From UHGV virus genome UHGV-1347164: a DNA stretch of 14,343 bases, one strand, 5' to 3'. The notes under the pieces were generated by a model. That model worked only from the letters and a program-made list of their open reading frames with translations, made no database searches and was not told where the DNA came from. The position numbers and the translations under genes were made by a program. The stretch's first letter is position 1. Each line of letters begins with the position of its first letter. Below are positions 2,345-12,844 of this stretch, one piece after another. This DNA is from a virus.

Positions 2345-4099
2345 TTACTCACGCCCCAATTTCCATACTGAATTATACGATAAAATACTTAGTTCAGCAG
2401 CTCTTGACCTCATATGATCGGGCGTCCATTCTCCTTGATATTTATTTTCAAATTCATCAATAAAAATTTTAACTAGCGCATATTGTGATTGTTTATAAAT
2501 TTCAAGCTTATCCACAACAGACTTATTTCCAGCTTTTTCATTTAATTCTTTTGAAAGTGGTAATAAATTTCCTATCATGCTATATACTTCAGAATCCCCC
2601 ACACTCTGAGGCTGAATATGCTCTAATGTTAATGAATCAGGCATATACTCCCCCGTTTTCATGTGATGTAACTCAAGTCTATTAAAAATGTACTGAATCA
2701 ACCTTTTATTTTTCAACTCTTGATTTGAAAATTTAAGCATAACAAACTTTTCAACAAACATATTAATGTCTGGTTTTCTCTTCACCAACATTTCAAGCAA
2801 AGACTTTATTACTTGTCTATTACTAGCTTTAGTAGAACCTTCATCCACTAAAGCCCTAGCAGCTTTAGCATACGCACTTTCAATACCTGATGGTCGCAAT
2901 GAACAAATAGCATTAAACATAAAATGAAAGCGTTCAATTGACAGCACTGCATTATTCATATCAACAAGTTTTAGCGTTCCTCTTGCTCTTGCCTTAAATA
3001 AAGATAACAAAAATGGTTTATTCTGAGATATGTTAAACAGCCTTAATGCCTGCAAACCTCGATAAACTGGTTTCATTTCCAGTTCAGGAAAATCCTGTTC
3101 TGTAGGCGATGATATTTTCACATATATCTCGGCATCTGAAAGTAGCTCATCAATGAACGCTGAAGCATCAATGTCGCCTTTTTTCCACTTATCCAGAAAA
3201 GCTTTATAAAGAGTGTCACTACTTACATAAGAATATTTTGACACCCACCAATGACGGATAAATGTCTCGATAGAACCGACACCATTACGACTAGCAATTA
3301 TTTGCCTAATTTTATTCCATTTAGTTTTTGCATCATCATCAGGATGTGTGCCATTCAGTTTCTTAAATAATTTGTTTTTTATAAGATCTACATAACTTAA
3401 GTTTAATCCCCTAGCATTCAGAGTTTCAAAGATTGTATAAGCTTCATCTTCATCATTAACTGTAATATAAATCACTTTCAGATACCGTAGAACTTGATCC
3501 CGCACAGCCTTCAACGCTTCCAAGTAGATAAATTTCTCTCTATCTACTCCTAATGTCTGGCAAAGATTATCTTCTGAAAGATACTCAGTTAAATCATTAT
3601 ATGAAGATTGCAAGTTTCTTTCTTCAAGGGACTCCGGCCCTTCATTTCTCTTATCAATATGCTGAATGTTGTTTTGAAAGTATGGCTTAGGAGTTTCATT
3701 AACTAATTTAAAAAAAGGTCTGCCATCGTCATCCATACCAGATATATAATTATTATATATTGATTGAGCTACAGCCAACTCATTTATCAACTTAAATTTA
3801 TCACATAATGCTGATAACAATATAGTAAGAGTCGTAAGACGTTGTTGACCATCTACAATCATCAGCTCAGAGCTAGTTTCCTGCCCGACCAAAACGAGAG
3901 CACCGATGAAATACTCATCATATTGATACTGCCCATCCTCCTGGTAATGAATATTGGAAACTATATCATGCCAAAGTTCACTTACTTGTTCCTTCCCCCA
4001 AGAATATTCTCTTTGGAATCTAGGGACTATATATTTTTTATTTACAGATAACACGTTTGTTAAGGTTCGAGCATTTGCTTGCAGTTCCACTGAGGCCAC
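2345..4099 (-). CDS. GmrSD-family type IV (modification-dependent) restriction endonuclease-like protein: N-terminal DUF262 (ParB-like NTPase/nuclease fold) plus C-terminal DUF1524 (His-Me finger nuclease)
   Basis: N-terminal motifs FQREYSW and DGQQRLTT are the DUF262 hallmarks. C-terminal LEHIQPQS ... GNLLPLSKELNEKAGNKS matches the DUF1524 His-Me finger pattern. 584 aa, visibly AT-rich against the GC-rich phage genes. No early ATG: the start is probably GTG at 4099 or the GTG at 4090, which is preceded by AGGTGG. Confidence 0.7.
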   Translation of the reverse strand: MASVELQANARTLTNVLSVNKKYIVPRFQREYSWGKEQVSELWHDIVSNIHYQEDGQYQYDEYFIGALVLVGQETSSELMIVDGQQRLTTLTILLSALCDKFKLINELAVAQSIYNNYISGMDDDGRPFFKLVNETPKPYFQNNIQHIDKRNEGPESLEERNLQSSYNDLTEYLSEDNLCQTLGVDREKFIYLEALKAVRDQVLRYLKVIYITVNDEDEAYTIFETLNARGLNLSYVDLIKNKLFKKLNGTHPDDDAKTKWNKIRQIIASRNGVGSIETFIRHWWVSKYSYVSSDTLYKAFLDKWKKGDIDASAFIDELLSDAEIYVKISSPTEQDFPELEMKPVYRGLQALRLFNISQNKPFLLSLFKARARGTLKLVDMNNAVLSIERFHFMFNAICSLRPSGIESAYAKAARALVDEGSTKASNRQVIKSLLEMLVKRKPDINMFVEKFVMLKFSNQELKNKRLIQYIFNRLELHHMKTGEYMPDSLTLEHIQPQSVGDSEVYSMIGNLLPLSKELNEKAGNKSVVDKLEIYKQSQYALVKIFIDEFENKYQGEWTPDHMRSRAAELSILSYNSVWKLGRE

Positions 4100-4166
4100 C
4101 TACTTTAGTTGTTTGTATTACACAGTTTTATAGCATTGGAGTTTGAATGACAACCCGTTGCGCGCG

Positions 4167-4185
4167 CTCGTATCCCCGCCACGCC
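4167..4185 (-). other. cos-like cohesive-end motif (minus strand GGCGTGGCGGGGATACGAG)
   Basis: Minus-strand 19-mer matches the 186 cohesive end as I recall it (GGCGTGGCGGGGAAAGCAT) at 15 of 19 positions, and P2 (GGCGAGGCGGGGAAAGCAC) at 13 of 19. Orientation is the one expected for a P2-type left end reading toward Q. Exact ends and identity are unverified. Confidence 0.45.
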
Positions 4186-4564
4186 TGCCCGCTTTATGCA
4201 GTGGTTTTCATGCACATGCATGACATGAGCAAAAGCCCGCCAGTTCTGGCGGATCTGAGCAAAGACGATCCTCAATCGATCATGCGATTTCATGCAGCAT
4301 AGTCATGCACTGTCAAGGAAGTGAAAATCCGTATCTGAATGGCCACTTGAAAAACGGATCATACGGGTTTACAAAGATGAATGTTCGCTGTGAACGGGAA
4401 GCGGAAGTTAACTTTCAGATAACATAATCCATATGCACGAGAACCTCTAAAATAGAATGGGACACCTAAGCGGGGTACTTACAACGATTCTTTCCATATT
4501 CACAGTTAACACTCTGTTTGGCGTATTTTTATTCAAATAGCAAACACCAATAAAAGGAGTTTCC

Positions 4565-4900
4565 ATGAACAATATTCCCCCTATACCACAGTTAGGAATT
4601 TATGTCTCAAAAATCGATCCCACCCTACGTATCACTGTAACCGATGTTGATATTGTTGATGGTGAGGATGATTCTCCTGATGATGAATTGTTTTATTTAG
4701 TCCACTGGATCGAGGGGGAAGATGAAAGTGATATGACAGCAATGGGATTTGAGCTAGACCCAGTAGAGTGGCAGGCTTTCGTTGAATCTGAGCAATTAGT
4801 GTTTGAGCGTGATCCGTACATGGATTCAATCCCCGAAAATTCAAACTTGGCAAAGATTCGGGATTTTCTCATGAAGACTAAACAGAATGATCATTCGTAA
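4565..4900 (+). CDS. Hypothetical, highly acidic small protein (111 aa); function unknown
   Basis: Clean ATG with an AGGAG Shine-Dalgarno 6 nt upstream (aaaAGGAGtttccATG). About 26 Asp/Glu against 7 Lys/Arg by manual count. AT-rich; lies in the accessory region between the cos-like site and the end of gene A. Confidence 0.6.
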   Translation: MNNIPPIPQLGIYVSKIDPTLRITVTDVDIVDGEDDSPDDELFYLVHWIEGEDESDMTAMGFELDPVEWQAFVESEQLVFERDPYMDSIPENSNLAKIRDFLMKTKQNDHS

Positions 4901-5092: not shown

Positions 5093-5326
5093 TTAATGCA
5101 GCCAGCTGTCGTCCTCCCACACCTTCTGCATAATTTTCATCACTTGTTTTCTTTCTTCATCCAGTTGCAGTCCGGTTAGTTCCACACCGTTAGAGCTACC
5201 TTTGCGAATGCGAATTACCGTTTTGGGATACAGGGGGCGCAGATTGCGGTAAAGCTCGGATTCAAGTGCGTCCAGGGTAGACTGGCTAATCTTCTGCTCT
5301 TTATCGATCATTATTTCAATGCGCAT
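5093..5326 (-). CDS. dinI: DinI-family protein (SOS-inducible RecA modulator homologue), about 77 aa from the internal ATG
   Basis: From Met25 of track ORF 5093..5398 the protein reads MRIEIMIDKEQ...DALESEL...KIMQKVWEDDSW, which aligns by eye with E. coli DinI (MRIEVTIAK...DALAGEL...ETWESADDW). A GAGGTG Shine-Dalgarno sits 6 nt upstream of this ATG and overlaps the stop of the preceding ORF. Confidence 0.7.
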   Translation of the reverse strand: MRIEIMIDKEQKISQSTLDALESELYRNLRPLYPKTVIRIRKGSSNGVELTGLQLDEERKQVMKIMQKVWEDDSWLH

Positions 5327-5336
5327 AAAAGTCACC

Positions 5337-5525
5337 TCAGCTGATGACATCCATTGAGCGGTTGTATTCGTGGCTTCTGATTTTTGCCATGAGTTCATCA
5401 GTCAATTCAGAAACCCACTGCAGAGCCAGCCCCTTCTCTTCATCACTACACTCACTAGCCGCTACAAGCTTAAGAAAAAAATCAATGCGCTGGAGCTTCA
5501 AAGACTCCAAAAAATAGTCCTGCAT
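5337..5525 (-). CDS. Hypothetical small protein (62 aa), first gene of a putative LexA-regulated operon; candidate Tum-like antirepressor component
   Basis: ATG at 5525-5523 is preceded by GGAGG (GGAGGaaaaATG). The track's longer 96-aa version starts at a TTG and would run through the LexA box and promoter, so the shorter form is preferred. Its TGA stop is embedded in the Shine-Dalgarno of the DinI-like gene, suggesting translational coupling. Confidence 0.5.
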   Translation of the reverse strand: MQDYFLESLKLQRIDFFLKLVAASECSDEEKGLALQWVSELTDELMAKIRSHEYNRSMDVIS

Positions 5526-5566
5526 TTTTCCTCCTATGACACCACAAGCAATACTGTATGCATAAC

Positions 5567-5586
5567 CACTGTTTATATTTACAGTA
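5567..5586 (-). promoter_or_regulatory. LexA (SOS) box overlapping a candidate promoter for the small-ORF / DinI-like operon
   Basis: Plus strand reads cACTGTttatatttACAGta, i.e. CTGT-N8-ACAG with an AT-rich spacer, a near-consensus match to TACTGTATATATATACAGTA. It lies about 45 bp upstream of the ATG at 5525. A candidate -35 TTTACA and -10 TACTGT on the minus strand overlap the box. Confidence 0.55.
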
Positions 5587-5678
5587 TATAATAATCTTAC
5601 TGATGTAAAACGTTTTTTTACGTTCATCGGCCTGATATGCCTGGTATTATTAAGAGCACGAATTGTTAACCCGCGTAA

Positions 5679-8093
5679 TTAATACAGGTTCCGCCACTTA
5701 TCATCTTCCTTCAGACGCTGGTTCCGATAGAAGATACGCAGGCCTGCTCCTGACGGAATACTGCCGCCGCGAAGGAGCAAATCGACTTCTTTCTCGCTGC
5801 CATCAAATCCCCTGGACTTCAGTTCATAGACGAGCTGCTGTCGCTGATGGTCTGTAATTCGCTGTTTGTAGTCTTTACGCCGTTTCGGTTTCACCTGGCG
5901 TAACCTTGCAGCCAGTTCCCGGCGCTCTTTTTTGCTCATACTGTGCAGGTAATCGTGCAACTCCTTGTCATCCATGCGGGTAATGTCCGTTCTGGTGTCC
6001 CCATCAGCTGATTTATCTTTCTCCTGTTGGTTCAAATTTTCAGCAAGGGGACAGTTATTGCCACGAGTCCAAGGGGCGCAAGCGCCCTGGTCGGCTGCCG
6101 CCTCCTGAACGTCAACGGCTTTACGAACCATTTTCCACTTCACTGCATGAGTGCAGATCTTGCCCTCTGCAATGGGTGACCAGATGCCATAAATACGAAT
6201 GCCGTGATCGCCATAGGCGGTCGGCTCTTCGTTGATTTCATAAGCGGTTCTGATGAGGTGATATTTACGGGGAACCAGTACGCCGCCCTGCTTCATGATG
6301 TAGGTGGCAAAACAACCAGCATCAGCAGCAGCCAGGATTGCATCAAGGCGCGGGTTATCCAGTACCGGCGCACCTGCTTTTTTGTCACCCTGTTGCCTTG
6401 CCGCCTGACCAGCCAGCAATCGCAGTTCACGGTAAGCCTGACGCCCCGGAATGCCAAAGAAGCGGAATTGCTGAACACGATGCAGAGACGCCCAGGCATT
6501 TACGTATTCAGCGTTATCACGCAGGGATTTACCCGTTTCCTTGCTGATCTCGCCAGCCAGACCACGCCCGTCAATGTTCTTACTGATGTATTTCGCGATA
6601 TAGCTTGTTGGCGTACCTTTGCGCGGGTTTATCAGCTCAGACTTAAAGCGTGGTCCCGTGTTATTGCCCAACTCCTCGCGGTCTTCACGGATGGCAAACT
6701 TACGCAGTAATGCAGTGATGGCGCGGCGGTCTTTTTTACGCATGAAACACATGAGATGCCAGTGCACAGTACCGTCATGATGCGGCTCAGCTACCCGCAC
6801 GCCATACCAGCGCAACCCGGCTTTATGCATAGCCTTACGAAATGCAGCAAACATGCCGACCAGATAATCGCTACTTTGTCTTACCGTCGCGTTTGTCCAG
6901 GTCGGGTTTGGTCTGCCGTTATTGAGCGTGGAATGGAAACGCGACGGACAGGTGATAGTGTAGAAAACGGCACAGTCACTGCGCATTTCCGCGATAAGCT
7001 CCAGACCTTTAACACAGGCCATCATCTCATTGCGGCGATGCGCAGGGTTGCTGCTGCTGGCGTTTACCACATCCTCCATGTCCAGCGTGTCGCCGTCTTC
7101 GTTCACCAGTTCATGAGAACGGAAAAACTCCAGCGACTTACGGCGCTGCTCACGTTTATGCAACACGGCTTCATAGCTGACATAGGGAGATGCTTTTTTG
7201 CTGACAAGGCAGACAGCACGCAACTGCTCTTCCCGCCATTCGCAACGCATCTTCCATAATTTCCGATACCACCAGTCGGCACACAACATACGCGCCAGCG
7301 AACCCGGGATGAGTTCATAGGGCACTGGTTTGCGGCGGTTTCTTTTCCGACGAAGTTTCTCAAACGCAGGCGGGATAACATCCAGACGCAGGGTTTCCGC
7401 TGCCACCTTTTCCCATGTCTTGCGGATTTCTTCTGGCTTAACGTCATCGGTGGCATACAAATCACCACAAGCGGCCTCAAGACACATGCTCATATGCGCT
7501 GCTACCAGGGTGGACAGGCGTTTTACCTGATCCTGACTCATTTCAGGCAGGATCAGCAGGCCCTCAAGCCCTTGATGGCTTGCCATAAAACGGAAAGAAG
7601 CGGATAGCTGACTGTCGCGTACATACTCCAGTCGCTCCAGACATGGCTTAATCGTCTCACGCAAATAGCGGGAATAAGCCTTTGGCCTGCCCAGGCTGCT
7701 GAAGTATTCGATACGTTGCATCAGCGGCTTGCTGATGTGGGTAGGCTGGGCGCTGACGTCCGACAGAATGACCATGTCCGGGTCAAAACGCTGCTGCTCA
7801 TGCGCCAGCTTTGCCCGGCTAATGAGCTTATCCTGCTCCATTTCGCGCTGGACAGGATCACGGGATTCATTAAAGAAATAACGTTCCCAGACCTGATCAC
7901 TCAGTGCCTCGCGGCGCTGCTGTTCCTGCTCGTTATCGGCAGCGTACAGAGTGATCATGTTTGAAAGTGCAGACTCCGGCGCAACTTCCTCCGGTTCCAG
8001 ATAAGGGTTAATGGCCTTTTTCGGGCCGTTCCATGAAAATGCTGCGGCAGCCTCGTTAAAGCCGCTAGAGTTGCTCATATCGTCATTACTCAT
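5679..8093 (-). CDS. A: Replication initiation endonuclease, P2 gpA-like rolling-circle (HUH) initiator
   Basis: 804 aa, ATG start at 8093-8091. Contains an HUH-type motif (TVHWHLMCF) and a tyrosine motif (YIAKYISK). Size and position downstream of the early operon match P2/186 gene A. GC-rich. Confidence 0.85.
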
Positions 8094-8947
8094 ACACGCA
8101 CCTCGTACACAGCAGAACTATCCACGCCACGCGAAGGATCAAATCCCATCCAGCAGCGCGGCCCGGAAACAGCAATGATTTCTGTTGCAGATTTACTCTC
8201 GCCAGCTGACACGCCGATGCTGCGTTTTGCCTTGATGTAGTGGTGAGTGAAATTGCGATACAGCGAACGGATCAGGGATGTGTCACTGTTAGAAACAATG
8301 ACCGGATGTCCTTCTGATGACCGATGTTCAAGAACAGATGCCAGGTGATACTGGTCATCTTCAGTGAAGCCGTCAGTGTGATAGCCGGAAAACGTACCGT
8401 CATACGGCGGATCGCAATACACCACATCCCCCGCCTTCAACATCGCCAGCGTTTCATCAAAGCTGGCGCAGATAAACGTTGCTCGCTGGGCCTTTTCTGC
8501 AAATGCGCGAATTTCTTTTTCAGGGAAATACGGATTTTTATAATTACCGTAGGGAATGTTGAAATGCCCGCTCTTGTTATAGCGACATAAACCACGATAA
8601 CCGTGACGATTGAGATACAGGAAATATATCGCCTTCATGAAATCAGTAATTTCAGTTGAGTAATTAAACTCCTGCCTTATGTTGTAATAAGCCAGCTCAC
8701 TGTTTGCTTCCTCAAATAAAACTCTGGCACGAGATATAAACGCTTCGCAATCAGCGGCAATCTTTTTATAGAGGTTGATTAAATCAGGATTAATATCCGC
8801 AACCAGATAGCTGGGGTAATCCGTCTCCATCATCACAGCACAGGAACCCGCGAAAGGTTCAACCAGTCGCGGGCCAGCAGGAAGGTGTTTTTTCAGTTCG
8901 GACATAATGGCGGTTTTATTTCCCGCCCATTTCAGGATGGTGCTCAT
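8090..8947 (-). CDS. dam: DNA adenine methyltransferase (Dam-like, N6-adenine MTase)
   Basis: From the internal ATG the protein begins [11 protein letters not shown], the typical Dam N-terminus, and contains the DPPY catalytic motif. The track ORF starts upstream at a TTG. Its TGA overlaps the ATG of gene A, and its ATG overlaps the stop of the upstream TraR-like gene. Confidence 0.8.
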
Positions 8948-9171
8948 ACAGCACCTCCGTTGTAATGTTTGCCTTTCAGCTCTGCGATCTCCTGGCAGGT
9001 AATGCAAAGCTGCACTCCCGGAATGGCGCGTCGTCTTGCTGGCGGAATTGGCGCTTCACATTCAATGCAAAGCACGCGTGACACGCCCGGCGTTCTGGCA
9101 CGGGCAGCACGGATATGACGCTGGCGTTCTTCTTCAACGCGCTGCTGTACGAGATCCATTGCATCAGCCAT
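8944..9171 (-). CDS. TraR/DksA-family C4 zinc-finger protein
   Basis: 75 aa with CIEC-x17-CITC, a C-x2-C ... C-x2-C zinc finger typical of TraR/DksA-like proteins found in P2-family early operons. ATG start at 9171-9169; stop overlaps the Dam start. Confidence 0.7.
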   Translation of the reverse strand: MADAMDLVQQRVEEERQRHIRAARARTPGVSRVLCIECEAPIPPARRRAIPGVQLCITCQEIAELKGKHYNGGAV

Positions 9172-9404
9172 TAGTGGATCTCCTGCGCTTCGTTCTGGAT
9201 TGCTTCAGCAGTCACACGCAGCAGTTCTGCTGCTTCGACGTGGTTTAGCTGGCGGGATGTGATATGACACGCCAGGCTATCAAGGCGGGCAGCCATTGCC
9301 TCAGCCCTTGCCCGACGTTCTTCAAGACGGGCCTCTGTCAGTAAAAGATTAAGACCTGCATCATCCGGTCCGGTTTTAGTCGTGAGGGTTTCAATATTAC
9401 GCAT
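9171..9404 (-). CDS. Hypothetical early-operon protein (about 77 aa)
   Basis: ATG at 9404-9402 preceded by GGAG (GGAGaattgattATG); the track starts 2 codons earlier at a TTG. Its stop overlaps the TraR-like start (TAATG). No recognisable motif. Confidence 0.5.
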   Translation of the reverse strand: MRNIETLTTKTGPDDAGLNLLLTEARLEERRARAEAMAARLDSLACHITSRQLNHVEAAELLRVTAEAIQNEAQEIH

Positions 9405-10850: not shown

Positions 10851-10879
10851 ACTTTAAGATCGCTTTTGGAATCTGTCAA
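10851..10879 (-). promoter_or_regulatory. Candidate early lytic promoter (pR-like) in the apl-cI switch region
   Basis: Minus strand has a consensus -35 TTGACA (10879..10874), a 17-nt spacer and -10 TAAAGT (10856..10851), oriented toward apl-cII. The placement is by eye only; operators and the opposing pL were not resolved. Confidence 0.3.
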
Positions 10880-11512: not shown

Positions 11513-12844
11513 ATGCCTATTGAATATACGTTTGATTATCGTGACGAGTTCCTTCGTAAGCCTATTGCTGAAAAATTAATATCGCTACTTGACTCTGATA
11601 TTAACTTATCTCCACTGGTTATAGATGGCGGATGGGGCACGGGGAAAACAGAGTTTTGCAAAAAAGTTGCAAATCTAATTGAAAGCAATAATCAAAAACA
11701 TAAAGTAGTTTACATTGATGCTTTCGCTGAAGATCATAATGATGCCCCAATTTTGACGTTAATGGCTGGTGTTGCTGCACTTCTTCCCGAAAATGAACGA
11801 AAGGAGTTAATAAATAAAACACTTCCAGCAATACGTTTTGGTTTGAAAACCATTTTCAAAGCAGGCACTGGATGGGTGTTAAAACAAAATGCAGATGACA
11901 TTGTTGATGGCTTCGAAGATGCTATCAAAGAAGCAACTTCGAGTGCAATTGACAGTACAATTGAAACATTATTAGACGATCATATAGAGGCGCAGAAAAA
12001 CATCGAGACACTGAGAAGTACAATATCGCATCTTACAGAGGAATATAAAATAACGATTTTTATAGACGAACTGGACAGATGTAAACCTACATTCGCTCTT
12101 TCAATCATAGAAAATATCAAACACATTTTTGAAATAAAAAATTTAAATTTTGTATTGGTTGCAAAGACTCAACAACTCAAGGCATCAATAAGGCATCTGT
12201 ATGGTTTATCCATAAATGCAGATCAGTATTTAGACAAATTCATTAAGTTTACATTTGTATTGCCAGATACATATAAACCAGATAACTATACACCTGCATA
12301 CGCATCTGTTGCTTTATGGGGAATATTAAAAAATGATTCTCAAAAACTGCAAGAAGTAGACGAATCATGCGGGCATATCATAAAAACGATAATACAAAGG
12401 GCTAAGTTGTCTTTACGTGAAGTAGAAACATTATCACGCCACTTTGAAATATATCAGGTGCTATCTCAATCTGGAATTGGTCCAGGGAAAGTATTTGGTT
12501 ATTCATTATATCGAATGTTAGGGGTAATATTATACTCTCTAAATCGCCCTTTGGCATTAAGTTATCTAGATAATTCTGTGGATGCAGAAAGCATTATCAA
12601 AACCTTAGGCTTTGAATATTTAAGTTACGATGAAGATATTTATAGGATAGATAATACTGAATGTGCTATTTATGGGATCGTACTGGACTATATTGATACA
12701 ACATCTCCATTCTTTATAAAAGATGATGAAACCAGAAGAAAATGGACTGAACGTGCTACCTATGATTTCTTTCAAAACGGCTTAGACGCAGTGCCTCCCC
12801 GAACACTTGTTTCGTCCACCATTGAAGCTTTAATGTTGAACTAA
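11513..12844 (+). CDS. KAP-family P-loop NTPase (candidate prophage-encoded defence or lysogenic-conversion gene)
   Basis: 443 aa with Walker A GGWGTGKT and the KAP-type Walker B IFIDELDRC, separated by a moderately hydrophobic segment (APILTLMAGVAALLP...). GGAG 6 nt upstream of the ATG. Strongly AT-rich; starts 31 bp after the cI stop and ends 80 bp before int. Confidence 0.8.
   Translation: MPIEYTFDYRDEFLRKPIAEKLISLLDSDINLSPLVIDGGWGTGKTEFCKKVANLIESNNQKHKVVYIDAFAEDHNDAPILTLMAGVAALLPENERKELINKTLPAIRFGLKTIFKAGTGWVLKQNADDIVDGFEDAIKEATSSAIDSTIETLLDDHIEAQKNIETLRSTISHLTEEYKITIFIDELDRCKPTFALSIIENIKHIFEIKNLNFVLVAKTQQLKASIRHLYGLSINADQYLDKFIKFTFVLPDTYKPDNYTPAYASVALWGILKNDSQKLQEVDESCGHIIKTIIQRAKLSLREVETLSRHFEIYQVLSQSGIGPGKVFGYSLYRMLGVILYSLNRPLALSYLDNSVDAESIIKTLGFEYLSYDEDIYRIDNTECAIYGIVLDYIDTTSPFFIKDDETRRKWTERATYDFFQNGLDAVPPRTLVSSTIEALMLN

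What the first reader, a model, noticed from the sequence alone, without database searches (positions are those of the whole stretch)
8090..9171. Phage-encoded Dam methyltransferase and TraR-like zinc finger chained to gene A by overlapping stop and start codons
Three consecutive genes are linked by stop-start overlaps: TAATG into the TraR-like gene, ATGA between the TraR-like gene and Dam, and ATGA between Dam and A. This suggests tight translational coupling in the early operon. A prophage Dam could protect against GATC-targeting restriction, or alter host methylation-dependent regulation. It may also interplay with modification-dependent nucleases such as the GmrSD-like gene in the same element.
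Basis: partly seen in the sequence, partly recalled or inferred. Interest (0 to 1): 0.35.

Follow-up and report, generated by a model that had tools for sequence, protein, structure and literature searches.

The report
Prophage Dam gene chained to replication gene
This is the ordinary, already annotated tail of the early lytic operon of a 186/Fels-2-type prophage, in which a small RNA-polymerase-binding protein, a GATC DNA methylase and the replication initiator are joined by overlapping stop and start codons, an arrangement found in about a quarter of complete E. coli genomes.

Summary
On the minus strand, DUF2732 (9404-9171), a TraR-like zinc finger (9171-8944), Dam (8947-8090) and gene A (8093-5679) are joined by TAATG, ATGA and ATGA.

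The identities are secure. Dam scores 261 bits on PF02086 and is 47% identical to E. coli Dam, with DPPY and six of seven GATC-reading residues conserved. The TraR-like protein has four Cys plus D3 and D6.

The overlaps are under selection. In 38 diverged relatives (Dam 55-97% identical), 36 of 37 keep a 4-nt overlap at the Dam start and 35 of 36 at its stop. They persist through ATG/GTG switches and when other cargo genes are inserted.

None of this is new. Phage 186 has the same chain, and its record says translation through orf84 is needed to translate A. Fels-2, SopEPhi and the retron-Ec67 prophage carry this Dam. The module is in 1243 of 5426 complete E. coli genomes.

The suggested GmrSD interplay is unsupported, and an effect on the host in lysogeny is unlikely because Dam lies in the CI-repressed pR operon.

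One side observation deserves follow-up. In Dam-carrying relatives a GATC sits one base upstream of the pR -10 in 83 of 91 loci, and two GATCs lie next to cos. Phage 186, which lacks Dam, has neither.

The parts
10851..10879 (-). Predicted early lytic promoter pR (TTGACA-17 nt-TAAAGT). It is the only sigma-70-like site on the minus strand upstream of the chain.
   Evidence: Its position corresponds to the mapped pR of phage 186 between cI and apl.
10858..10861 (.). GATC in the pR spacer, one base upstream of the -10 hexamer (side observation).
   Evidence: The same position holds GATC in 83 of 91 Dam-carrying loci and in 0 of 5 comparable Dam-lacking loci.
9171..9404 (-). DUF2732 gene (77 aa), equivalent to 186 Orf79 and P2 Orf80. 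It ends in the TAATG junction.
   Evidence: PF10809, E = 3.7e-29; junction read; 186 record.
9169..9173 (-). TAATG stop/start overlap (1 nt) between DUF2732 and the TraR-like gene.
   Evidence: The overlap is 1 nt in nearly all relatives where both genes were located.
8944..9171 (-). TraR/DksA-family C4 zinc-finger gene (75 aa), equivalent to 186 Orf80 and P2 Orf82. It has Cys35, Cys38, Cys56 and Cys59. The N-terminal motif reads D3-x-x-D6-x-V8.
   Evidence: PF01258, E = 3e-11; F-plasmid TraR, E = 3e-9; translation; DxxDxA motif described in PMC9239242.
8935..8958 (-). Predicted RNA hairpin that pairs the Dam Shine-Dalgarno sequence (GGAGGUGCU) with Dam codons 2-5 and leaves the AUG in the loop. 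It is predicted for this sequence only.
   Evidence: The 101-nt fold has z = -3.07, and 0 of 200 shuffles fold as well. There is no covariation in 32 sequences.
8944..8947 (-). ATGA stop/start overlap between the TraR-like gene and Dam.
   Evidence: conserved in 36 of 37 relatives.
8090..8947 (-). Orphan D12-class N6-adenine DNA methyltransferase (Dam, 285 aa). It has DPPY at 179-182 and GATC-contact residues K6, Y117, L120, R122, P132 and Y136. R118 replaces EcoDam N120.
   Evidence: PF02086, 261 bits; EcoDam PDB 2g1p, E = 2e-74; residue mapping against contacts listed in PMC4417163.
8090..8093 (-). ATGA stop/start overlap between Dam and gene A.
   Evidence: an [AG]TGA overlap is conserved in 35 of 36 relatives.
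5679..8093 (-). Gene A, the rolling-circle replication initiator/endonuclease (804 aa).
   Evidence: PF05840, E = 1.7e-126; 96% identical to the replication endonuclease of Klebsiella prophages.

Best explanation
The region is the distal half of the early lytic (pR) operon of a 186/Fels-2-type temperate phage of the Peduoviridae. The gene order is DUF2732, a TraR-like RNA-polymerase-binding zinc finger, an orphan GATC-specific Dam methyltransferase, and the rolling-circle replication initiator gpA.

**The overlaps.** UAAUG, AUGA and AUGA are conserved architecture of this operon. A ribosome finishing one gene stops on or next to the next start codon, which has a Shine-Dalgarno sequence a few bases upstream. 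It can therefore re-initiate. This ties synthesis of gpA to translation of the genes ahead of it, as was reported for orf84 and A in phage 186.

**The slot.** The position between the TraR-like gene and A is an insertion slot for accessory DNA-modification and DNA-processing genes. Each gene found there keeps an ATGA-type junction. In this phage the slot holds Dam alone.

**When Dam acts.** Dam is made only when pR is derepressed, that is, on infection or induction. It then methylates GATC on rapidly replicating phage DNA, for which host Dam is limiting, so progeny DNA leaves fully methylated. The TraR-like protein, made from the same transcript, most likely binds the RNA polymerase secondary channel and shifts host transcription, as P2 Orf82 and lambda Orf73 do.

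**Shown here:** gene identities, catalytic and DNA-reading motifs, the junction sequences and their conservation, and the variable cargo in the slot.

**Inferred:** actual coupling in this phage, Dam activity and its timing, and the benefit of the methylation.
For: - **Identities:**
- **Catalytic and reading residues:** DPPY and six of seven EcoDam GATC-contact residues are conserved here and across 34 family members (contact list from PMC4417163).
- **Junction conservation:** 36 of 37 loci at the Dam start and 35 of 36 at the Dam stop, over 55-97% Dam identity, with ATG/GTG switching. The junctions persist when other genes fill the slot: DUF3850/ASCH, an RNase_T exonuclease, a second D12 methyltransferase, a C5 methyltransferase and a PAPS-reductase-like gene.
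- **Phage 186 precedent:**
- **Same module in relatives:** Fels-2 (STM2732-2729), SopEPhi, E. coli AR_452 as annotated by PGAP, and 1243 of 5426 complete E. coli genomes.
- **Single promoter:** pR is the only predicted minus-strand promoter upstream. In 186, pR is repressed by CI.
- **Host Dam is limiting:** stated for high-copy DNA in Bobonis et al..
- **TraR homologue function:** P2 Orf82 binds RNA polymerase, inhibits rRNA promoters and complements a dksA deletion (PMC9239242).
Against: - Every downstream gene has its own good Shine-Dalgarno sequence, so independent initiation is possible and coupling need not be obligatory.
- The Shine-Dalgarno-sequestering hairpin at the TraR/Dam junction shows no covariation: 0 compensatory pairs, and 79.5% of cells paired against 80.4% in shuffles.
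- The Dam/A junction has no unusual structure (z = +0.54).
- No 186 tM1-like terminator was found just inside gene A.
- GATC is neither enriched nor avoided in the window: 55 sites, observed/expected 0.86-1.0. Composition therefore gives no sign of selection by GATC-cutting enzymes.
- EcoDam N120 is replaced by an invariant Arg, so a shifted specificity cannot be strictly excluded.
- No activity data exist for this exact protein.
Confidence: 0.78

Rival explanations
1. The overlaps are genome compaction with no functional coupling. Each gene is translated independently from its own Shine-Dalgarno sequence, and ATGA/TAATG junctions persist only because they are the easiest way to abut two reading frames.
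For: - Strong independent Shine-Dalgarno sequences sit at all three junctions.
- The sequestering hairpin shows no covariation.
- There is no significant structure at the Dam/A junction.
- From general knowledge, 4-nt and 1-nt overlaps are the commonest classes in prokaryotic genomes.
Against: - The overlap is kept in 35-36 of 36-37 diverged loci, through ATG-to-GTG changes and through replacement of the neighbouring gene.
- The 186 record reports that A translation depends on translation to the end of the upstream gene.
Confidence: 0.2
2. The phage Dam acts mainly on the phage's own control sites. It methylates a conserved GATC one base upstream of the pR -10 hexamer and a pair of GATCs beside cos. 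This would time early transcription and/or packaging, comparable to Dam-dependent pac cleavage in P1. This reading is compatible with the best explanation and would add a function to it.
For: - GATC occupies spacer positions 13-16 of TTGAC[AG]-N17-TAnnnT in 83 of 91 Dam-carrying loci (28 distinct promoter sequences) and in 0 of 5 comparable Dam-lacking loci.
- At the family level, 9 of 16 Dam-carrying switch families have it against 0 of 12-16 Dam-lacking families (Fisher p = 0.003 to 0.0008).
- The rest of the spacer is only 46% identical among these families.
- Fels-2 has it. The mapped pR of phage 186 does not.
- The GATCs at 4267 and 4278, 11 bp apart, are kept in six relatives although the sequence between them varies. 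They are absent at the aligned 186 positions.
Against: - The comparison is confounded by lineage: Dam-carrying loci were found through Dam, and Dam-lacking loci through 186 cII.
- The site is dispensable. SopEPhi reads GATT, and other Dam-carrying families read GAAC, AGAA or GCAA.
- The GATC could belong to a repressor operator.
- Host Dam would methylate these sites anyway.
- The promoters in relatives are predictions, not mapped sites.
Confidence: 0.25
3. The prophage Dam is expressed in the lysogen and reprograms host methylation-dependent gene regulation.
For: - Dam overproduction does change host phenotypes and can trigger a retron toxin system.
- A review notes that Dam methylation influences several Salmonella prophages, including SopEPhi excision.
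Against: - Dam sits about 1.9 kb inside the pR operon, with no predicted internal minus-strand promoter. pR is CI-repressed in 186.
- The hosts that carry this module are Dam-positive enterobacteria, so their GATC sites are already methylated.
Confidence: 0.07
4. Dam functionally interacts with the GmrSD-like nuclease in the same element, for example through self-protection or modification-dependent targeting.
For: Both genes lie in the same prophage. The GmrSD_N and GmrSD_C domains are real.
Against: - No phage record carrying this Dam has this GmrSD; the best phage hit is 27% identity in a Listeria phage.
- The 99%-identical Dam module in E. coli AR_452 has a TIGR02391-family gene in that slot.
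- The GmrSD gene has 34.5% GC against about 50% for the phage backbone, so it looks like a separately acquired add-on gene.
- From general knowledge, GmrSD-family enzymes recognise modified cytosines.
Confidence: 0.03

Closest known systems
Phage 186 early lytic operon (orf79-orf80-orf81-orf83-orf84-A)
   Same: - Same order: a DUF2732 gene, a TraR-like gene, cargo, then gene A.
- Same 1-nt TAATG junction followed by 4-nt overlaps.
- Coupling of A translation to the upstream gene is annotated in the record.
- Same CI/Apl/CII/Fil switch genes upstream.
   Different: - 186 has no Dam. Its slot holds an RNase_T-type exonuclease (Orf81), a DUF5405 protein (Orf83) and a PAPS-reductase-like protein (Orf84).
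- gpA is only about 35% identical.
- The 186 pR has no GATC.
Fels-2 (STM2732-STM2729), SopEPhi (orf6-orf9) and the retron-Ec67 prophage Dam
   Same: - Identical gene order and overlaps: DUF2732, zinc finger, Dam, gpA.
- Dam is 73% identical in SopEPhi.
- Both records describe the gene as similar to 'retron EC67 DNA adenine methylase'.
- The title of Hsu, Inouye & Inouye 1990 states that the Ec67 element encodes Dam methylase function (reference list seen).
   Different: - Different immunity regions and add-on genes.
- In these relatives the Dam/A junction uses GTGA rather than ATGA.
- SopEPhi lacks the pR GATC.
E. coli Dam (EcoDam, PDB 2G1P)
   Same: - Full-length alignment, 47% identity, E = 2e-74.
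- DPPY, K9, Y119, L122, R124, P134 and Y138 equivalents are all present.
   Different: - N120 is replaced by Arg.
- The third Gly of FxGxG is Cys.
- There is a 22-residue C-terminal extension that carries the gene A ribosome-binding site.
- The gene is phage-borne and part of a lytic operon, not a host housekeeping gene.
F-plasmid TraR and its phage homologues (P2 Orf82, lambda Orf73)
   Same: - About 75 aa, with a C4 zinc finger and D3 and D6 of the DxxDxA motif.
- Same position in the early operon as P2 Orf82.
- P2 Orf82 binds RNA polymerase and complements a dksA deletion.
   Different: - A8 of the motif is Val here. [quoted passage not shown]
- No biochemical data exist for this protein.
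Other phage orphan GATC methyltransferases (T4 Dam, P1 Dmt)
   Same: - D12-class enzymes, carried without a restriction partner and made during lytic growth.
- P1 Dmt is annotated as methylating GATC.
   Different: - Only 22% (T4) and 36% (P1) identical.
- Different genomic context.
- P1 uses Dam methylation for pac cleavage (general knowledge). No such role is established in P2-like phages.

Membership tests
D12-class N6-adenine DNA methyltransferase, Dam (GATC) subgroup | Full-length match to PF02086 above the curated cut-off, and to solved Dam structures | tested here: met
   261 bits against a cut-off of 22, profile positions 1-253 of 253. EcoDam chains match at E = 2e-74 over residues 4-263.
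D12-class N6-adenine DNA methyltransferase, Dam (GATC) subgroup | Catalytic motif IV, DPPY | tested here: met
   D179-P-P-Y182 aligns with EcoDam D181-Y184 and is invariant in 34 family members.
D12-class N6-adenine DNA methyltransferase, Dam (GATC) subgroup | AdoMet-binding motif I (FxGxG) | tested here: met
   The motif reads F32-A-G34-S-C36. The Phe and the first Gly are conserved. The last Gly is Cys in the whole family, and T4 Dam has Leu there.
D12-class N6-adenine DNA methyltransferase, Dam (GATC) subgroup | Residues that read GATC in EcoDam (K9, Y119, N120, L122, R124, P134, Y138; PMC4417163) | tested here: met
   Six of seven are identical: K6, Y117, L120, R122, P132 and Y136. N120 is Arg118; T4 Dam has Ser at this position.
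D12-class N6-adenine DNA methyltransferase, Dam (GATC) subgroup | Orphan status: no cognate restriction endonuclease next to it | tested here: met
   The neighbours are the TraR-like gene and gpA. The same holds in relatives.
D12-class N6-adenine DNA methyltransferase, Dam (GATC) subgroup | Demonstrated N6 methylation of adenine in GATC | not testable with these tools
   This needs DpnI/MboI digestion or methylation-aware sequencing of DNA made in a dam-negative host.
TraR subfamily of DksA/TraR C4 zinc-finger proteins | PF01258 match with four zinc-binding cysteines (CxxC-N17-CxxC) | tested here: met
   43.5 bits against a cut-off of 24.9. The cysteines are Cys35, Cys38, Cys56 and Cys59. F TraR matches at E = 3e-9.
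TraR subfamily of DksA/TraR C4 zinc-finger proteins | Short protein (about 73 aa) lacking the DksA coiled coil, with the N-terminal DxxDxA motif | tested here: inconclusive
   The protein is 75 aa. D3 and D6 are present but position 8 is Val, not Ala. PMC9239242 suggests that imperfect motifs could contribute to lower activity in P2 Orf82 and X. bovienii Gp34.
TraR subfamily of DksA/TraR C4 zinc-finger proteins | Binds the RNA polymerase secondary channel and alters initiation | not testable with these tools
   This was shown for the positional homologue P2 Orf82, not for this protein.
186-type translationally coupled early operon ending in gene A | Gene order DUF2732, TraR-like gene, cargo, gpA, downstream of the CI/Apl/CII/Fil switch | tested here: met
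186-type translationally coupled early operon ending in gene A | Stop/start overlaps of 1 or 4 nt at successive junctions, conserved among relatives | tested here: met
186-type translationally coupled early operon ending in gene A | Translation of A depends on translation of the upstream gene | not testable with these tools
   Documented only as an annotation note for 186 orf84/A.
186-type translationally coupled early operon ending in gene A | Terminator just inside gene A that acts when A is not translated (186 tM1) | tested here: inconclusive
   The scan found no terminator-like site within the first 900 nt of gene A. The fold of the first 144 nt is not exceptional (z = -0.93).
   None of the phage records carrying this Dam holds this GmrSD. 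E. coli AR_452 has different cargo in that slot.

The most novel reading that the evidence does not exclude
In the Dam-carrying branch of 186-like phages, the phage methylase acts on the phage's own control DNA. A GATC one base upstream of the -10 hexamer of the lytic promoter pR, and a pair of GATCs one helical turn apart beside cos, are kept in this branch although the surrounding sequence diverges. Phage 186, which has no Dam, lacks both. Dam is encoded in the pR operon itself, so this would be an epigenetic feedback on early transcription and possibly on packaging. It would also give a concrete candidate site for the reported but unexplained influence of Dam methylation on prophages of this group. 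However, SopEPhi, the phage for which that influence was reported, lacks the pR GATC.
Probability: 0.22. Interest if true: 0.55.

Novelty: already known. Interest (0 to 1): 0.17.

Why it matters
The finding as stated matters little. It re-describes a standard, routinely annotated module of 186/Fels-2-type prophages, and its coupling logic was worked out in phage 186.

Three points have some practical value:
- The slot just upstream of gene A collects DNA-modification genes in this phage family, always joined in phase by ATGA.
- The Dam gene belongs to the lytic operon, so it should not be read as a lysogenic-conversion or virulence factor.
- The GmrSD-like gene is an unrelated add-on.

The side observation gives a cheap, testable hypothesis for why these phages carry a second copy of an enzyme their hosts already have: conserved GATC sites sit at pR and beside cos only in the Dam-carrying branch.

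Tried and rejected
1. **Shine-Dalgarno-sequestering hairpin at the TraR/Dam junction.** It is significant in this sequence alone (z = -3.07). In 32 diverged sequences there are no compensatory changes, and pairing is no better than in column shuffles. I do not count it as evidence.
2. **A 186 tM1-like terminator inside the start of gene A.** None was found.
3. **GATC avoidance or enrichment as a sign of selection.** Observed/expected is 0.86-1.0, unremarkable among 4-nt palindromes.
4. **Dam and GmrSD co-occurrence.** There is none.
5. **The pR GATC as the explanation for Dam-favoured SopEPhi excision.** Rejected for SopEPhi itself, which reads GATT at that position.
6. **Primary papers.** Hsu et al. 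1990 is not held, so only its title, seen in a reference list, is used. No paper on 186 orf84/A coupling or on Fels-2 STM2730 function was found in the library.
7. **A 2026 Salmonella methylome preprint.** I checked it for the methylation state of Fels-2 sites. Its text does not mention Fels-2.
8. **Per-position conservation table of the pR spacer.** The representatives were chosen for having GATC, so the 100% conservation there is circular. Only the family and locus counts are informative.
9. **Structure prediction and the large protein searches.** I did not use them, because the sequence matches are unambiguous.


Full report
**1. What is in the sequence**

All the genes of the finding are on the minus strand.

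| Gene or junction | Coordinates (minus strand) |
|---|---|
| DUF2732 gene stop, TAA | 9173-9171 |
| TraR-like gene start, ATG | 9171-9169 (TAATG, 1-nt overlap) |
| TraR-like gene stop, TGA | 8946-8944 |
| Dam start, ATG | 8947-8945 (ATGA, 4-nt overlap) |
| Dam stop, TGA | 8092-8090 |
| Gene A start, ATG | 8093-8091 (ATGA, 4-nt overlap) |

These were read directly. The mechanical ORF list extends Dam to a TTG at 9007, but three things fix the start at 8947:
- the alignment with E. coli Dam, where query residue 4 aligns with EcoDam residue 7;
- the GGAGG at 8958-8954;
- the PGAP annotation of a 99%-identical E. coli prophage.

Each downstream gene has its own Shine-Dalgarno sequence inside the preceding gene.

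**2. What the genes are**

Pfam assignments:

| Gene | Family | Score |
|---|---|---|
| 8090-8947 | PF02086, D12-class N6-adenine methyltransferase | 261 bits, full-length |
| 8944-9171 | PF01258, DksA/TraR C4 zinc finger | E = 3e-11 |
| 9171-9404 | PF10809, DUF2732 | E = 3.7e-29 |
| 5679-8093 | PF05840, phage replication protein A | E = 1.7e-126 |

Upstream on the same strand lie DUF5347, Fil, CII and an Apl-position ORF. CI, a KAP-family NTPase and an integrase lie on the other strand. Terminase, portal, a GmrSD-like gene and a DinI-like gene fill the other end of the window. The window is therefore a 186-type temperate phage of the Peduoviridae. The only sigma-70-like promoter predicted on the minus strand upstream of the chain is at 10879-10851 (TTGACA-17-TAAAGT). 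This is where phage 186 has its CI-repressed lytic promoter pR.

*Dam.* The best solved-structure match is E. coli Dam (E = 2e-74, residues 4-263), at 47% identity. Horton et al. 2015 (PMC4417163) list K9, Y119, N120, L122, R124, P134 and Y138 as the residues that intercalate into or read GATC.
- Here they are K6, Y117, R118, L120, R122, P132 and Y136, with DPPY at 179-182.
- Only N120 differs. It is Arg in all 34 family members examined, and T4 Dam, a GATC enzyme, has Ser there.
- GATC specificity is therefore very likely but not proven.

*TraR-like protein.* It matches F-plasmid TraR (E = 3e-9). It has Cys35, Cys38, Cys56 and Cys59, and D3 and D6 of the DxxDxA motif, with Val at position 8. 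Gopalkrishnan et al. 2022 (PMC9239242) showed three things about P2 Orf82, which sits at the same place in the P2 early operon:
- it binds RNA polymerase;
- it inhibits rRNA promoters;
- it complements a dksA deletion, although it showed lower activity than TraR in vitro.

**3. Are the overlaps meaningful?**

One ATGA proves nothing, so I looked at relatives. I collected 80 near-identical viral contigs and 37 species-representative enterobacterial genomes carrying this Dam at 55-97% identity, plus SopEPhi.
- All 80 near-identical contigs have ATGA at both ends of Dam.
- Among the 38 diverged loci, 36 of 37 scorable loci have a 4-nt [AG]TGA overlap at the Dam start and 35 of 36 at the Dam stop.
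- About 15 loci use GTGA rather than ATGA at the stop, so the start codon changed while the overlap was kept.
- The DUF2732/TraR junction is the 1-nt TAATG in nearly all loci.

The overlap also survives changes of neighbour. Some relatives carry extra genes between the TraR-like gene and Dam, or between Dam and A, and each extra gene is joined by ATGA. Pfam identifies these as DUF3850/ASCH, an RNase_T-type exonuclease, a second D12 methyltransferase, a C5 cytosine methyltransferase and a PAPS-reductase-like protein.

Phage 186 fills the same slot with an RNase_T exonuclease (Orf81), DUF5405 (Orf83) and a PAPS-reductase-like protein (Orf84). These are joined by the same 1/4/4/4/4-nt chain. Its GenBank record states that 'translation to end of orf84 appears necessary for translation of A protein'. 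P2-type phages show a similar though looser chain.

The overlaps are thus a selected feature of the operon, and the position upstream of A is a cargo slot. Coupling in this particular phage is inferred, not shown.

I looked for an RNA basis for coupling, with three results:
- The TraR/Dam junction folds into a hairpin that pairs the Dam Shine-Dalgarno sequence with Dam codons 2-5 and puts the AUG in the loop (z = -3.07).
- In 32 diverged junctions there is not one compensatory change, and pairing (79.5%) equals the shuffle mean (80.4%). The pairing potential can be explained by conservation of the Shine-Dalgarno sequence and of the protein N-terminus.
- The Dam/A junction has no unusual structure (z = +0.54), and no 186 tM1-like terminator was found early in A.

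**4. How it most likely works**

On infection or induction, pR fires and one transcript carries apl, cII, fil, DUF5347, DUF2732, the TraR-like gene, dam and A. Ribosomes terminating at each overlap re-initiate on the next gene, which sets the yield of gpA relative to the genes before it.
- The TraR-like protein probably reprograms host RNA polymerase.
- Dam methylates GATC on replicating phage DNA. There are 55 sites in this 14.3-kb window.
- Host Dam is reported to be limiting for high-copy DNA (Bobonis et al. preprint). A phage copy would therefore ensure fully methylated progeny.
- The usual benefit is protection from methylation-sensitive GATC-cutting enzymes in the next host (stated). A known cost is that Dam overproduction can trigger a retron toxin system by methylating its msDNA.

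GATC frequency in the window is ordinary (observed/expected 0.86-1.0), so composition neither supports nor contradicts this.

**5.

*Host reprogramming from the prophage is unlikely.* Dam lies deep in the repressed lytic operon with no predicted internal promoter, and the hosts are Dam-positive enterobacteria.

*Interplay with the GmrSD-like gene is not supported.*
- No phage record with this Dam has this GmrSD.
- E. coli AR_452 has the same Dam module at 99% identity, but carries a TIGR02391-family gene in that slot and a different gene in place of the KAP NTPase.
- The GmrSD gene has 34.5% GC against about 50% for the backbone.

**6. Comparison with what is known**

The module is annotated in several places:
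- Fels-2, as STM2732-STM2729, with 'DNA adenine methylase-like protein';
- SopEPhi, as orf6-orf9, 'similar to retron EC67 DNA adenine methylase';
- 45 of 56 matching phage records cover at least 80% of the query; the listed records are Klebsiella prophages;
- 1243 of 5426 complete E. coli genomes, where PGAP calls the same coordinates and names.

The exact TraR-like protein is on at least 1000 contigs in the protein collection. The title of Hsu, Inouye & Inouye 1990 states that the retron-Ec67 element encodes Dam methylase function (reference list). I could not read the paper itself.

Distribution among P2/186 relatives:
- This Dam clade accompanies the gpA clade that is at least 80% identical to the window's. 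There are 57 such gpA records against 56 records with Dam above 60% identity.
- It is absent from 186, PSP3 and the P2-type phage L-413C.

Nothing in the finding as stated is new.

**7. A side observation that may be new**

While mapping GATC sites I saw one at 10858-10861, inside the pR spacer and one base upstream of the -10 hexamer.

*Evidence for a link with Dam*
- Among loci anchored on cII, a strict TTGAC[AG]-N17-TAnnnT promoter at the expected distance carries GATC at exactly these spacer positions in 83 of 91 Dam-carrying loci (28 distinct promoter sequences). It does so in 0 of 5 Dam-lacking loci.
- Grouped into switch-region families, 9 of 16 Dam-carrying families have it, against 0 of 12-16 Dam-lacking families (Fisher p = 0.003 to 0.0008).
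- The other twelve spacer positions are only 46% identical among those families.
- A locus whose CII is only 58% identical to the window's (L114, a Pantoea genome) still has it.
- Fels-2 has it. The mapped pR of phage 186 does not.

*A second site near cos*
- Two GATCs 11 bp apart (4267 and 4278) lie next to a minus-strand terminator hairpin. They are about 80-95 bp from a 186-like cos sequence at 4168-4186 (read).
- They are conserved in AR_452, SopEPhi, KP12, ST437-OXA245phi4.1 and Yersinia phage MLG42 although the sequence between them varies. They are absent from the aligned 186 sequence.
- I confirmed a Dam gene for AR_452, SopEPhi and KP12 only.

*Caveats*
- The two sets of loci were ascertained differently and are separate lineages.
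- The promoters in relatives are predictions.
- The site is dispensable: SopEPhi reads GATT, and other families read GAAC, AGAA or GCAA.
- It could be part of an operator.
- A review notes that SopEPhi excision is favoured by Dam methylation through unknown targets (PMC7380047). This site cannot be that target in SopEPhi.

I rate a real Dam-related function at roughly one in four or five.

**8. Verdict**

This is an ordinary, already known module of 186/Fels-2-type prophages, so interest in the finding as given is low. The conserved GATC sites at pR and beside cos in the Dam-carrying branch are the only part worth a follow-up experiment.

Noticed in passing
window 10858-10861 (pR at 10879-10851, minus strand); relatives L005-L121, L250: A GATC sits in the pR spacer one base upstream of the -10 hexamer. 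The same position holds GATC in 83 of 91 Dam-carrying 186-like loci (28 distinct promoter sequences, including Fels-2) and in 0 of 5 comparable Dam-lacking loci. Phage 186 lacks it, SopEPhi reads GATT, and the comparison is confounded by lineage.
   Followed up: yes
window 4160-4290 (cos-like sequence 4168-4186; hairpin about 4222-4250; GATC at 4252, 4267, 4278): Three GATCs lie within 30 bp beside a minus-strand terminator hairpin and a 186-like cos sequence. The pair at 4267 and 4278, 11 bp apart, is conserved in AR_452, SopEPhi, KP12, ST437-OXA245phi4.1 and Yersinia MLG42, and is absent at the aligned positions of phage 186. It may be a methylation-sensitive packaging or termination element.
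   Followed up: partly
relatives L087-L113, between the TraR-like gene and gene A; L003 (phage 186) 751-2608: The position just upstream of gene A is a variable cargo slot. Relatives carry DUF3850/ASCH, an RNase_T exonuclease, a second D12 methyltransferase, a C5 cytosine methyltransferase or a PAPS-reductase-like gene there, each joined by ATGA. 186 Orf81, Orf83 and Orf84 are an RNase_T exonuclease, DUF5405 and a PAPS-reductase-like protein.
   Followed up: yes
window 11513-12844 (+): A KAP-family P-loop NTPase gene (PF07693, E = 2e-50; 34.8% GC) sits between cI and int in the lysogenic operon. The 99%-related E. coli AR_452 prophage has a different gene there. It is probably an add-on gene expressed in the lysogen, possibly for defence.
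   Followed up: partly
window 2345-4099 (-): A GmrSD-like gene (DUF262 plus a GmrSD_C nuclease domain; 34.5% GC) occupies the slot between the portal gene and cos. No phage record in the collection has it at more than 27% identity, and AR_452 has a TIGR02391-family gene there instead. The exact protein is on 43 contigs, named from E. coli.
   Followed up: partly
Dam residue 118 (window about 8594-8596): EcoDam N120, a base-contacting residue, is replaced by Arg in all 34 members of this prophage Dam clade. The third Gly of motif I is Cys in all of them. The effect on specificity or kinetics is unknown.
   Followed up: no
protein collection, cluster containing window 8090-8947: The 90%-identity cluster that holds this 285-aa Dam has an 804-aa 'replication endonuclease' as its representative and mixes both proteins. 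This suggests that some database entries are Dam-gpA fusion calls across the ATGA junction, or that the clustering chained them together.
   Followed up: no
L002 (Yersinia phage vB_YenM_42.18) 3001-3780: A Dam-like stretch (54% identical, 90% coverage) is not annotated as a methyltransferase. Only two small hypothetical CDSs are called there, and the annotated gpA start (3644) lies inside it. It may be a decayed or mis-annotated Dam.
   Followed up: no
window 4565-4900 (+) and 5337-5627 (-): Two ORFs (111 aa and 96 aa) have no Pfam match. The first is annotated as a hypothetical protein in AR_452. They flank a DinI-like gene (5093-5398), at the position where 186 has its SOS-controlled tum operon.
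   Followed up: no
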